Source: a virus. From it: DNA of 64,000 nt. A model generated the notes under the pieces. The model saw only the letters and a program-made list of their open reading frames with translations. It was not told where the DNA came from and made no database searches. The DNA is taken from IMG/VR virus record IMGVR_UViG_3300032893_000008, positions 1-64,000 of that record. The stretch is one strand, 5' to 3'. The translations under genes were made by a program, and so were the position numbers. Below, piece after piece: positions 20,875 to 22,111 of the stretch. Position 1 is the first letter of the stretch; the number at the start of each line of letters is the position of its first letter.

Positions 20875-20947
20875 CGCACCCGTGGGGAGTCGAACCCCAT
20901 ACGCAGGAATTTAGAGTTCCCCGCTCTGACCGATGAGCTACGGGTGC
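20875..20947 (-). tRNA. Amber suppressor tRNA (anticodon CUA)
   Basis: GCACCCG/CGGGTGC acceptor, GCTC/GAGC D stem, GGGAA-CTCTAAA-TTCCT, TTCGACT T-loop, G discriminator. Confidence 0.88.
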
Positions 20948-20960
20948 AGAATGAACTGAG

Positions 20961-21116
20961 CACCGGTTTTTCCCCTGCACAGGGTTCCGGCGGACTCAGT
21001 GCCGGCAGGGTTGTGGCTTAACAAGCCACGCCTTACCGCCCAGTCCAAAAGCCGATCCGGTGGTTTGACCAACGTCGCTCCGGAGACCAACCTTGAGTTC
21101 CGTGCACGAGACCGGC
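20961..21116 (-). ncRNA. Candidate structured ncRNA within tRNA array
   Basis: Terminal CCGGT/ACCGG and TGCACGG/CTGTGCA stems; internal TCCGG/CCGGA, GGACT/AGTCC, GTGGCTT/AAGCCAC stems. Confidence 0.55.
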
Positions 21117-21118
21117 GA

Positions 21119-21191
21119 TAGCGGGGGCTGGATTTGAACCAGCGATTTTCTGGGTATGAGCCAGACGAGATGGCCTCTTCTCTACCCCGCT
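21119..21191 (-). tRNA. Initiator-type tRNA-Met(CAT) with A1:U72
   Basis: AGCGGGG/CCCCGCT acceptor, A11:U24, TCTGG-CTCATAC-CCAGA, TTCAAAT T-loop. Confidence 0.85.
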
Positions 21192-21195
21192 AAAC

Positions 21196-21286
21196 TGGTG
21201 GCTCCGGATGGATTCGCACCACCGACCTCCCGGTTAACGCCGGGCGCTCTATCGCCCTCTAGGGGCGCTCACTGAGCTACGGAGCC
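21196..21286 (-). ncRNA. tRNA-like RNA with D-loop hairpin, 6-nt anticodon loop and encoded CCA
   Basis: GGCTCCG/CGGAGCC-A-CCA, D-loop insert CGCCC-CTAGA-GGGCG, CCCGG-CGTTAA-CCGGG, T-loop TGCGAAT. Confidence 0.8.
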
Positions 21287-21291
21287 AAAAC

Positions 21292-21365
21292 TGGTGGGCC
21301 CGCCTGGATTTGAACCAGGATCTTGTCCCTCAGCGGGACTGCTCTTTGCATTGAGCTACGAGCCC
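21292..21365 (-). ncRNA. tRNA-like RNA with 5-nt anticodon loop and encoded CCA
   Basis: GGGCTCG/CGGGCCC-A-CCA, D-loop AATGCAAA lacking GG, GTCCC-GCTGA-GGGAC, CCTGG-TTCAAAT-CCAGG. Confidence 0.8.
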
Positions 21366-21369
21366 TAAC

Positions 21370-21729
21370 TTACTTCCAAAGCTTGTATTTCTTGAACGTC
21401 TCCCGCATCTTACCAGAAATGGGTTCCGTAGTCAAGGCCGTCCAACCCATGCCATGATCAGGTTCGAAGAAGATCTCATGTCTAATGCCGGCTTTGGTCA
21501 ATTCTTCAGCAGCTACCAGAAGAGCGGCCTGGTCCGGAACCTGCAAAGCGATCAGGCTGGCCACCTCACGCTCGTGTCGGATTTGGCCATCGGCCTGCAC
21601 GGTAGTGCCGATGCTAGGCCGATAGAACGCAGCACCAGCTTCCAGACAAGCATGGCCGAGCTGCACTAGCTGATTCCGTAGCCGGATATCCGTCCGGACG
21701 ATCACGTAGACGTAAGGCTTACCGTCCAT
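21370..21729 (-). CDS. Pth2-like peptidyl-tRNA hydrolase
   Basis: YVYVIVRTDI..QLVQLGHACLE, IALQVPD, FEPD..TAL pattern of PTH2 fold; GAGGT SD. Confidence 0.75.
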   Translation of the reverse strand: MDGKPYVYVIVRTDIRLRNQLVQLGHACLEAGAAFYRPSIGTTVQADGQIRHEREVASLIALQVPDQAALLVAAEELTKAGIRHEIFFEPDHGMGWTALTTEPISGKMRETFKKYKLWK

Positions 21730-22081
21730 TGATGACCTCACACAGGAGGGGAACGATTTGCGCTGGATCAATGATTTCCCCGAAGAGAAAGGTGAGATCT
21801 TCCCGGAGATGTTCCGTTGCGACTTGGTCGAAGCTATTTTTGCGACGGAGGTAGGCACAAATCGATCCCCAAACTTCCAGGCGGGCAGGCCGAAAGCCAT
21901 TTTCGAGCTTGTTGTGGTTGGTGGGCGCGGTGAGCCCGCGGTCCCAAGGAAGCCCCCTAAGTATGGCGTAGAGGGCGAAATGCCTCGCCGTAAGGTGGTG
22001 CTTCTTCTCAGAGTTTACCGTTCGGCTCCAGGCGGAGCGAAGGGCGGGATGGACCTAGATCGTATCGTTGGGGAACTTCAT
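21719..22081 (-). CDS. Amber-interrupted hypothetical gene (TAG at codon 9; 120 aa if read through)
   Basis: AGGAGG 9 nt before ATG; MKFPNDTI-TAG-VHPALRSAW...HFALYAILRGLPWDRG...CEVINGR; no in-frame ATG/GTG/TTG after the TAG; TAA overlaps Pth2 start. Confidence 0.7.
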
Positions 22082-22102
22082 GATTTGTTGCCTCCTGCAC
22101 TG

Positions 22103-22111
22103 ATTATACCA
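22103..22111 (-). promoter_or_regulatory. Extended -10 promoter of the Pth2/tRNA operon
   Basis: TGG-TATAAT (TGn plus perfect -10). Confidence 0.65.

What the first reader, a model, noticed from the sequence alone, without database searches (positions are those of the whole stretch)
20875..22111. Amber-gated operon: TAG-interrupted gene, Pth2, anticodon-less tRNA mimics, initiator tRNA, ncRNA and its own amber suppressor
Seen in sequence: one tightly packed minus-strand unit starts at an extended -10 (TGGTATAAT). The first gene has AGGAGG 9 nt before ATG (22081) and reads MKFPNDTI, then TAG (22057-22055), then 111 more sense codons with no in-frame ATG/GTG/TTG. Its TAA overlaps the start of a Pth2-like gene. 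Two CCA-ended tRNA-like RNAs, an initiator tRNA, a structured RNA and a tRNA with anticodon CUA follow. Other genes here use TAG only as a terminal stop, so this is not a recoded phage. Inference: the operon's last product licenses translation of its first gene. That would be a suppressor-dependent switch (timer, positive feedback, or sensor of tRNA integrity under anticodon-nuclease defence), linked to peptidyl-tRNA recycling. I know of no description of this arrangement.
Basis: partly seen in the sequence, partly recalled or inferred. Interest (0 to 1): 0.93.

Follow-up and report, generated by a model that had tools for sequence, protein, structure and literature searches.

The report
Suppressor-tRNA-gated phage operon
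A phage that otherwise uses the normal genetic code puts a UAG stop at codon 9 of the first gene of a small operon that also encodes a tRNA-hydrolase-like protein and a UAG-reading tRNA, and dozens of distant phages, some lab-grown, keep the same lock-and-key pairing, so these proteins are probably made only when that tRNA overrides the stop.

Summary
The sequence features are real. A minus-strand unit runs TGGTATAAT, AGGAGG, ATG, 8 codons, TAG (22057-22055), 111 open codons, then an overlapping Pth2-like gene, two tRNA-like genes with 5- and 6-nt anticodon loops, tRNA-Met(CAU), a 168-nt spacer and tRNA(CUA). Only the 'initiator' label fails. The interrupted gene ('X') is real: 72 homologues, which also align upstream of the TAG. 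The genome is not recoded.

The decisive evidence is comparative. Of 34 other loci with this Pth2-like subfamily, 29 have a stop 1-9 codons after an ATG and just before the conserved first strand. It is TAG in 28 and TGA in one. A cognate suppressor tRNA lies in the fetched DNA of 24 of the 29, and the single TGA gate sits beside a tRNA(UCA). Five gated cases are cultured jumbo phages.

This window is a variant. Its Pth2-like gene has no gate; the TAG sits in the upstream gene X, whose stop overlaps the Pth2-like start.

Best reading (0.6): suppressor-dependent translation of X, probably coupled to Pth2-like. The physiological role is unknown. Main rival: a tolerated nonsense mutation in X. 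This scan has found the gated-Pth2 module before on other DNA. Five literature searches found no description.

The parts
22103..22111 (-). Extended -10-like TGGTATAAT. It lies in the 43-nt gap after the upstream lipoprotein-like ORF (stop 22127-22125).
   Evidence: 2 matches in the window against 0.35 expected. No -35 match was reported. Promoter function is inferred.
22091..22096 (-). Shine-Dalgarno AGGAGG, 9 nt before the ATG of gene X.
   Evidence: In the genome-wide scan for early gates this is the only candidate with an SD that is not antisense to a confident gene.
21719..22081 (-). Gene X, 120 codons if TAG is read. It belongs to an uncharacterised helical family, of which some members are in phrog_22448.
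   Evidence: 72 hits at E<=1e-3, best 4.5e-10; alignment A1; model pLDDT 82.3, seven helices.
22055..22057 (-). In-frame TAG at codon 9 of X (the 'gate').
   Evidence: It aligns with a family column that is mostly E or D. It was reproduced by an independent assembly.
21370..21729 (-). Pth2-like gene, 119 aa, with no internal stop. Its ATG overlaps the end of X by 11 nt (ATGGACGGTAA).
   Evidence: Pfam PTH2. Foldseek matches to archaeal and human Pth2, E 5e-6 to 2e-5, TM 0.63-0.73..
21292..21365 (-). tRNA-like gene 1. Its anticodon arm has a 5-nt loop (GCUGA). Discriminator A and CCA are encoded.
   Evidence: Rfam tRNA, 49.8 bits, 5 positions where the model has 7. ARAGORN calls it Gln(CUG).
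21196..21286 (-). tRNA-like gene 2. It has a 6-nt anticodon loop and a 20-nt hairpin inserted in the D loop. CCA is encoded.
   Evidence: Rfam tRNA, 47.0 bits. ARAGORN does not call it.
21117..21192 (-). tRNA-Met(CAU), of elongator or Ile2 type. It is not a bacterial-type initiator.
   Evidence: A1:U72, and only two G:C pairs at the foot of the anticodon stem.
20949..21116 (-). 168-nt spacer between two tRNAs. Possibly a structured RNA; unclassified.
   Evidence: MFE -72.8 kcal/mol, z -2.68. No Rfam match. No sequence relative in the fetched loci.
20871..20948 (-). Amber suppressor-type tRNA with anticodon CUA and a normal 7-nt loop (CU-CUA-AA).
   Evidence: ARAGORN. Rfam tRNA, 57.7 bits, 20947-20875.

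Best explanation
This is a variant of a conserved phage module. In that module a suppressor tRNA is paired with a neighbouring gene that carries the cognate stop codon a few codons after its start. Full-length protein is then made only when the tRNA out-competes the release factor.

In this phage, ribosomes start at the strong AGGAGG-ATG of gene X. They meet UAG at codon 9. They either terminate, releasing an 8-residue peptide, or read through using the tRNA(CUA) encoded at the end of the same transcription unit.

The Pth2-like gene starts 11 nt inside the end of X. Read-through of X therefore probably also raises Pth2-like translation by translational coupling. This would replace the gate that relatives carry inside the Pth2-like gene itself.

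What is shown:
- the sequence anatomy;
- that X and Pth2-like belong to real families;
- that early cognate stops are conserved across distant phages.

What is inferred:
- that the tRNA is expressed and charged;
- that read-through happens;
- that the two genes are translationally coupled.

The purpose is also inferred. My preferred purpose is that output of the Pth2-like protein (and of X) is tied to the current efficiency of suppression. This would work either as a feed-forward supply of a peptidyl-tRNA-handling enzyme, or as a feedback clamp on the suppressor.
For: 1. X is a genuine gene.
- 72 proteins match at E<=1e-3.
- Homologues align on both sides of the TAG position, and X keeps the family's invariant residues.
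- The model is confident.
- The antisense ORF has no homologue but itself.

2. Apart from a non-canonical start at or after codon 40, which would drop the conserved W18 and Y38, read-through is the only route to X. No ATG, GTG or TTG follows codon 1.

3. The gate is conserved. Of 34 other Pth2-like loci, 29 have ATG, then 1-9 codons in all (ATG included), then a stop, just before the conserved first strand. It is TAG in 28 and TGA in 1. None has TAA or TGA between the ATG and the domain except the TGA case.

4. Strong SDs precede the leader ATG, for example in L003, L010, L014, L016, L017, L029, L038 and L043.

5. A cognate suppressor tRNA lies in the fetched DNA of 24 of the 29 gated loci. 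None has only a non-cognate one. The single TGA gate (L038) lies 26 nt after a tRNA(UCA).

6. Five gated cases are complete genomes of cultured phages: GAP32, ME3, RsoM2USA, Serratia BF and Arash. There the gene is unannotated or annotated truncated.

7. The focal Pth2-like protein groups with the X-linked clade (92/86). Gated genes lie on both sides of the deepest split. So its lack of a gate looks derived.

8. The stop of X overlaps or abuts the Pth2 leader ATG in 6 of 12 X-clade loci, and in the focal phage.

9. The genomes are not recoded. Code-11 coding density is 0.76-0.91 in the 14 loci over 5 kb, against 0.80-0.93 with TAG as sense. G000 is dense under code 11.

10. The base after the gate is a purine in 24 of 27 gates. 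I recall that this context favours amber suppression in E. coli.
Against: - The gate in X is unique to this genome. The other X genes examined have no in-frame TAG. One of them, L007, looks disrupted by a frameshift or deletion, so X can decay.
- No close relative of this phage was found for comparing codon 9.
- The Pth2-like gene has its own GAGG 6 nt before its ATG. The predicted pairing that would hide it is no better than shuffles (z -0.43). Coupling is therefore unproven.
- No read-through-promoting structure flanks the TAG (z 0.42).
- Seven confident genes of the phage end in TAG, so a strong suppressor would have a cost.
- The GKGK loop of canonical Pth2, whose second Lys I recall as catalytic, is absent from this subfamily. 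Hydrolase activity is therefore uncertain.
- There are no expression data. No RNA run was listed.
Confidence: 0.6

Rival explanations
1. A private nonsense mutation in X, for example GAG to TAG at a column that is mostly Glu. It is either tolerated because the resident suppressor makes it leaky, or it marks X as a young pseudogene. The Pth2-like gene would then be translated from its own SD.
For: - The TAG aligns with a mostly E/D column, one base change away from GAG.
- The gate in X is seen in 1 of 21 distinct X loci.
- X appears disrupted in L007.
- Pth2-like has its own GAGG.
Against: - The position (codon 9 of 120) and the identity (TAG) mirror the conserved early gates of relatives.
- It occurs in a lineage whose Pth2-like gene has lost its own gate.
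- X keeps all family-invariant residues. It has no second lesion over 111 codons.
- A consensus extended -10 and a strong SD still serve it.
Confidence: 0.22
2. X is translated from a non-canonical start downstream of the TAG, or by re-initiation after the 8-codon mini-ORF, with no need for the suppressor.
For: Non-canonical candidates exist: ATA at codon 40, CTG at 68 and ATT at 74.
Against: - All of them lie after the conserved W18 and Y38 region.
- None has an SD.
- Homologues conserve residues upstream of the TAG column.
Confidence: 0.05
3. The real gene is the antisense + strand ORF at 21758-22189 (143 aa), which a public gene call reports. The minus frame would then be open by chance.
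For: - The + frame has no stop and a slightly higher codon score (0.199 against 0.09).
- It is on record as a predicted protein (P0003).
Against: - It has no homologue other than itself.
- The minus frame has 72 homologues and conserved synteny with Pth2-like.
Confidence: 0.03
4. Sequencing or assembly error at the TAG, or a phage that reads TAG as sense throughout.
For: The record is a metagenome-derived virus contig.
Against: - A second assembly agrees with no difference at depth 14, though it may come from the same sample.
- The standard code gives dense genes, and TAG ends 7 of 110 confident genes.
- No other credible in-frame TAG exists.
Confidence: 0.03

Closest known systems
Suppressor-tRNA-gated Pth2-like genes of large phages. 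Earlier notes of this scan describe them. I found no paper that does.
   Same: - Same Pth2-like subfamily: 32-48% identity to the 11 other members aligned in A4.
- Suppressor tRNA(CUA) on the same strand within about 1 kb.
- An early in-frame cognate stop behind a strong SD-ATG.
- A standard-code genome.
   Different: - Here the stop is in the upstream overlapping gene X (codon 9), not in the Pth2-like gene.
- The tRNA lies downstream of the genes rather than upstream.
Stop-codon-recoded phages with their own suppressor tRNAs (code 15 or code 4). For Borges et al., bioRxiv 10.1101/2021.08.26.457843, I saw the abstract in a search listing. For the theta-ribozyme preprint 10.1101/2023.06.13.544163, I read passages.
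   Same: A phage-encoded suppressor tRNA is proposed to decide when stop-containing phage genes can be translated.
   Different: - Those genomes carry many in-frame stops, mostly in late and lytic genes.
- Here a single gene carries one. The stop sits in the first ten codons, next to the tRNA gene.
- The genome is dense under the standard code.
prfB (RF2) autoregulation through an early in-frame UGA. Recalled textbook case.
   Same: An early in-frame stop makes the yield of a translation factor depend on how efficiently that stop is decoded.
   Different: - prfB escapes by a +1 frameshift, and its product is the factor that reads the stop.
- Here escape would be by a suppressor tRNA.
- Whether the product acts on that tRNA is unknown.
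Synthetic suppressor-tRNA feed-forward circuits (PMC7969014 and PMC13276491; abstracts seen in the search listing).
   Same: An amber codon in a target gene, plus a co-expressed suppressor tRNA, gates translation.
   Different: Those circuits are engineered. This would be a natural and widespread counterpart.

Membership tests
PTH2 peptidyl-tRNA hydrolase (PF01981) | Profile match above the curated cut-off | tested here: met
   E 3.5e-5, 24.4 bits against a cut-off of 23. 23.5 bits in the six-frame search. The margin is small.
PTH2 peptidyl-tRNA hydrolase (PF01981) | Pth2 alpha/beta fold | tested here: met
   Model pLDDT 88.2. Foldseek matches 2zv3, 3erj, 1q7s, 1wn2 and 1xty at E 5e-6 to 2e-5, probability 1.00, TM 0.63-0.73.
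PTH2 peptidyl-tRNA hydrolase (PF01981) | Catalytic residues. I recall Lys of the GKGK loop, Asp and Thr from work on archaeal Pth2. | tested here: inconclusive
   The Q..H motif and an EPD...G.TA motif are conserved. The GKGK loop is replaced by a shorter segment. Residue roles are recalled, not checked in a paper.
PTH2 peptidyl-tRNA hydrolase (PF01981) | Hydrolysis of peptidyl-tRNA | not testable with these tools
   Needs an enzyme assay.
Amber suppressor tRNA | Cloverleaf with a 7-nt anticodon loop carrying CUA | tested here: met
   Rfam tRNA 57.7 bits over the full model. Loop CU-CUA-AA.
Amber suppressor tRNA | Expressed, aminoacylated, and decodes UAG | not testable with these tools
   No RNA run was listed. 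The charging identity was not resolved.
Suppressor-tRNA-gated Pth2-like module | Cognate stop within the first ten codons of the Pth2-like gene | tested here: not met
   The focal Pth2-like protein reads MDGKPYVYV with no stop. 29 of 34 other loci have the stop.
Suppressor-tRNA-gated Pth2-like module | Suppressor tRNA near a member of this Pth2-like subfamily, on the same strand | tested here: met
   The tRNA(CUA) lies 420 nt downstream in the same unit. No minus-strand terminator-like site lies between them. Subfamily membership.
Suppressor-tRNA-gated Pth2-like module | Early cognate stop somewhere in the translational path to Pth2-like | tested here: inconclusive
   TAG is at codon 9 of X, whose stop overlaps the Pth2-like ATG by 11 nt. 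Coupling is not shown.
Gene X family (phrog_22448 for some members) | Sequence homology to the family | tested here: met
   phmmer found 72 hits, best 4.5e-10. The focal protein itself hits no PHROG at E<=1e-3, while 9 of 45 aligned members hit phrog_22448.
Stop-codon-recoded phage (code 15) | Many in-frame TAGs, and poor coding density under code 11 | tested here: not met
   142 ORFs tile the 119-kb record under code 11. There is one credible in-frame TAG.
Bacterial initiator tRNA | C1xA72 mismatch and three consecutive G:C pairs in the anticodon stem | tested here: not met
   A1:U72 and stem UCUGG/CCAGA. The rules are recalled; the three-GC rule also appears in the PMC6393288 abstract (listing).

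The most novel reading that the evidence does not exclude
The suppressor tRNA and the Pth2-like protein form a closed translational homeostat. The protein can only be made by suppression. It in turn acts on the suppressor's own aminoacyl- or peptidyl-tRNA, or on products of read-through, and so clamps read-through at a set point.

The early stop would be a portable regulatory element. In this phage it has moved from the Pth2-like gene into the upstream, translationally coupled gene X. X itself would be a dedicated partner of the suppressor system. The anticodon-loop-less, CCA-ended tRNA-like RNAs in the same unit could be further substrates or decoys of it.
Probability: 0.15. Interest if true: 0.9.

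Novelty: new variant of a known kind. Interest (0 to 1): 0.78.

Why it matters
Suppressor tRNAs in phages that use the standard code have had no known target. The XacN1 paper says so explicitly (PMC5852040, passages read).

An early cognate stop in a neighbouring Pth2-like gene gives them a concrete and testable target. It is conserved in dozens of distant phages and present in cultured ones: GAP32, ME3, RsoM2USA, Serratia BF and Arash.

It would be a natural counterpart of engineered amber-gate circuits. It would also be a second natural case, after prfB, of a translation-related gene whose yield reports the efficiency of stop-codon decoding.

This window adds a natural experiment. The gate sits in a different gene of the same operon, which argues that the dependence on suppression, not the exact site, is what selection keeps.

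There is also a practical point. Gene callers miss or truncate these genes, or call the antisense strand.

Tried and rejected
**Close relatives of the focal genes**
- Searching IMG/VR with the single proteins found none.
- A 10-sequence alignment with the focal protein first also found none.
- tblastn of X and of one homologue against cultured phages found no match.
- Phages related through the head protease (5 loci, 44-59% identity) lack the module near that gene. Codon 9 could therefore not be compared in a close relative.

**Read-through elsewhere in G000**
- Two TAG-ended genes are followed by in-frame ORFs, at 31686 and 53062.
- The 71-aa ORF has PHROG families of its own, and the 126-aa ORF matches nothing. 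I reject them as read-through targets.
- The other early-TAG candidates lie antisense to confident genes.

**Function of X**
- No Pfam family matches.
- Foldseek found no PDB match at E<=0.001; the best was E 2.7.
- VIA-align against 48,161 chains gave a best Z of 3.6.
- The ESM Atlas gave low recognition (1227). Its first hit was a T3SS-associated cluster at 0.91, which I treat as chance.

**Binding of X to Pth2-like**
- Complex prediction returned no verdict (score 0.01). I use it neither for nor against binding.

**RNA elements**
- The spacer RNA and the two tRNA-like genes have no sequence relatives in the fetched loci.
- The spacer has no Rfam match at E<=1.
- I read passages of the theta-ribozyme preprint. 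I could not test whether the spacer holds such a ribozyme.
- No RNA holder was listed among sequencing runs.
- RNA folds around the TAG and around the Pth2-like SD are no better than shuffles.

**Other**
- No RF-1 domain was found in G000. The record is 72% complete.
- The amino-acid identity of the suppressor was not resolved.
- Supplementary files of papers were not consulted. The tRNA table in the XacN1 supplement might bear on its suppressors.
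Full report
**Observation**

The window is the first 64 kb of a 119,223-bp linear virus record, estimated 72% complete.
- TGGTATAAT at 22111-22103;
- AGGAGG at 22096-22091, then nine bases, then ATG at 22081;
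- eight sense codons (MKFPNDTI), then TAG at 22057-22055;
- 111 further sense codons, then TAA at 21721-21719.

After codon 1 the frame holds no ATG, GTG or TTG. The first non-canonical candidate is ATA at codon 40. The TAA lies inside ATGGACGGTAA, so the next ORF (21729-21370, 119 aa) overlaps by 11 nt.

That ORF passes the Pfam PTH2 cut-off narrowly (24.4 against 23 bits). Its model (pLDDT 88.2) matches solved archaeal and human Pth2 structures at E 5e-6 to 2e-5, with TM 0.63-0.73.

Four matches to the Rfam tRNA model follow:
- two with aberrant anticodon loops (5 nt; and 6 nt plus a 20-nt D-loop insertion), both ending in an encoded CCA;
- a tRNA-Met(CAU);
- a tRNA(CUA).

A 168-nt spacer separates the last two. 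It folds moderately better than shuffles (z -2.68).

No minus-strand terminator-like site lies in 19400-23200. TGNTATAAT occurs twice in the window against 0.35 expected.

The tRNA-Met has A1:U72 and lacks the three G:C pairs, so 'initiator' is not supported.

**Is the interrupted frame a gene?**

The opposite strand carries an open 143-aa ORF with a slightly better codon score. The public collection calls it as a protein, but it has no homologue other than itself.

The minus frame, read through the TAG, finds 72 proteins at E<=1e-3 among 1.84 billion representatives. The best is 4.5e-10, about 50% identical over residues 13-70.
- In the alignment of 45 members, the homologues have about 17 residues before the TAG column. 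The focal MKF...TI stretch aligns with them.
- The TAG falls in a column that is mostly Glu or Asp.
- The focal protein keeps the invariant Trp and the nearly invariant Tyr and Gly.
- The family has no Pfam model. Nine of 45 members hit phrog_22448, of unknown function.
- The model is an all-helical protein (pLDDT 82.3) without a convincing structural match.

I call this gene X.

**Is the phage recoded, or the TAG an error?**

Under the standard code, 142 ORFs tile the record. The 110 confident ones end in TAA 52, TGA 51 and TAG 7.

Scans for in-frame TAG flanked by coding signal gave only three kinds of result:
- the focal case;
- shadows antisense to confident genes;
- two adjacent gene pairs that annotation shows to be separate genes.

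An independent assembly of a wetland metagenome run, possibly the source sample, covers 21291-22600 at depth 14 without a single difference.

**Comparative evidence**

A 12-member alignment of X homologues retrieved 5 viral loci, 16 metagenomic loci and 1 genomic locus. That makes 20 distinct loci after removing two duplicates.

ARAGORN finds a tRNA(CUA) upstream of X, on the same strand, in 13 of the 20. The 7 without one have short flanks or only weak matches.

I translated these loci with TAG shown as X and searched them with the focal Pth2-like protein. This found a Pth2-like ORF downstream of X in 12 loci. In 11 of them an in-frame TAG lies two to five codons after an ATG (nine if counted from a farther in-frame ATG in L023) and a few codons before the conserved YxYVxVRTD strand.

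Using the Pth2-like alignment as query gave 16 more viral loci, 14 of them new.
- 12 of the 14 carry the same early TAG.
- L025 has no gate, and no suppressor in its flank.
- L038 has AGGAGG, ATG, three codons and then TGA. It lies directly downstream of a tRNA with anticodon UCA.

tblastn against cultured phages found the subfamily in 28 records and 26 records. These are mostly jumbo phages, and often nothing is annotated under the match. I inspected eight.
- GAP32, Acinetobacter ME3, Ralstonia RsoM2USA, Serratia BF and Salmonella Arash have the early TAG.
- A tRNA(CUA) lies nearby in ME3, GAP32 and Arash.
- XacN1 has SD-ATG-AAG-TAG five codons before the annotated start of a fused ORF.
- RAS14 is fused and its start is unresolved.
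- RaK2 is ungated.

Overall, 29 of 34 other loci are clearly gated. Of those 29, 24 have the cognate suppressor in the fetched DNA, and none has only a non-cognate one.

Many loci are related to each other: L014 with L017, L002 with L011, and L030 with L032-L036. The number of independent lineages is therefore smaller than 29. Even so, gates occur on both sides of the deepest split of the tree.

These genomes are not globally recoded. Coding density in the 14 loci over 5 kb is 0.76-0.91 under code 11, against 0.80-0.93 with TAG as sense. The cultured phages are annotated under code 11.

**What is special here**

The focal Pth2-like gene starts MDGKPYVYV, without a stop. It groups with the X-linked clade (support 92/86), so the loss of its own gate looks derived.

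Instead, X carries TAG at codon 9. In 6 of 12 X-clade loci the stop of X overlaps or abuts the leader ATG of the gated Pth2-like gene. In the focal phage the overlap is 11 nt.

The simplest reading is that the dependence on suppression has been kept but relocated one gene upstream, with translational coupling passing it on to Pth2-like.

This part rests on one genome. Coupling is not shown: the Pth2-like gene has its own GAGG, and the fold that would mask it is not significant.

The main rival is a nonsense mutation in X that the resident suppressor makes tolerable. X does look disrupted in L007.

**Mechanism and purpose**

Shown:
- the anatomy;
- family membership;
- conservation of the gate, and its covariation with the anticodon.

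Inferred:
- that the tRNA is expressed and charged, and that read-through occurs;
- the purpose.

I favour a link between the yield of Pth2-like (and X) and the current efficiency of suppression. Two forms are possible:
- feed-forward supply of an enzyme that deals with by-products of read-through;
- feedback on the suppressor itself.

The placement of the stop at codons 2-10 fits a gate that wastes only a short peptide. So does a purine after the stop in 24 of 27 gates.

Hydrolase activity itself is uncertain, because the GKGK loop of canonical Pth2 is missing.

**Prior knowledge**

Five full-text searches found no description of a stop-gated Pth2-like gene paired with a suppressor tRNA.

The XacN1 paper reports two CUA tRNAs with no identifiable target (PMC5852040, passages). 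The Atu_ph07 paper reports a UCA suppressor and two putative Pth genes, without linking them (PMC6102473, passages).

This scan has noted the gated Pth2 module many times on other DNA. One such note was later priced at 85 in 100 for the observation and 20 in 100 for the bold switch reading. I reached the module independently before reading those notes. They agree with what I found and temper the odds.

**Verdict**

- This is a new variant of programmed stop-codon read-through by a phage-encoded suppressor, and it is directly testable in cultured phages.

Noticed in passing
L030 2470-2862; L033, L034, L035, L036 about 3501-3970: In one subclade the gated Pth2-like ORF has no stop at its usual end. 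It runs on into the adjacent tRNA(CUA) gene, which in L030 starts at the base after the last matched codon. Post-gate ORFs are 135-151 aa against about 105 elsewhere. Excision of the tRNA would leave a stop-less mRNA.
   Followed up: no
L026 5767-5841; L027 4012-4086; L029 4398-4477: CCA-ended tRNA-like genes with extended anticodon stems and mini or odd loops lie near the module in three other phages. ARAGORN gives them 'anticodons' of 4 or 2 letters. Rfam tRNA scores are 48.7 and 47.9 bits for L027 and L029. They resemble the two tRNA-like genes of this window, but no sequence similarity to them was found.
   Followed up: partly
L054 (Salmonella phage Arash, OQ632216.1) 3172-3324 and 4310-4384: The record annotates a 50-aa 'peptidyl-tRNA hydrolase' fragment and a 'tRNA-Phe'. 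ARAGORN reads the tRNA's anticodon as CUA. The full Pth2-like frame starts at SD-ATG-CTG-TAG upstream.
   Followed up: partly
L040 (Xanthomonas phage XacN1, AP018399.1) 1443-1466: AGAGGA, ATG-AAG-TAG and four codons precede the annotated ATG of ORF364, in frame. The C-terminal part of ORF364 is the Pth2-like domain. This is a candidate target for the two CUA tRNAs whose targets the XacN1 authors could not find.
   Followed up: partly
window 21758-22189 (+): The antisense ORF over gene X is on record in the public protein collection as a 143-aa predicted protein with no relatives. It is probably a gene-caller artefact caused by the TAG.
   Followed up: yes
L004 / L031 (one 378,848-bp viral contig), L004 3311-4104: A phage tmRNA gene (tag AENNFAFAA) lies directly upstream of two tandem tRNA(CUA) genes, X and the gated Pth2-like gene.
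   Followed up: no
L007 336-771: The X homologue is split between two frames and lacks about ten codons around the conserved Trp. It is either decayed or mis-assembled. The neighbouring Pth2-like gene is still gated, with a tRNA(CUA) upstream.
   Followed up: partly
window 22125-22574 (-): The upstream ORF has a signal-peptide-like N-terminus with a lipobox-like LGLAC and a Pro/Thr-rich linker. It has no Pfam or PHROG match and a low codon score. It is probably a lipoprotein.
   Followed up: no
window 31446-33764 and 52678-54372 (-): Two TAG-terminated genes are each followed in frame by a small ORF. They are an SNF2 helicase and a DUF2201 metallopeptidase/VWA protein, followed after 8 codons and 1 codon respectively. 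A working suppressor would fuse them at some rate. Annotation suggests they are separate genes.
   Followed up: partly
PDB 24bt_A: Among solved chains, this recent 127-residue 'peptidyl-tRNA hydrolase' is the best sequence match to the phage Pth2-like profile (E 0.0012). It shares the VQS.HA motif. Its origin was not looked up.
   Followed up: no
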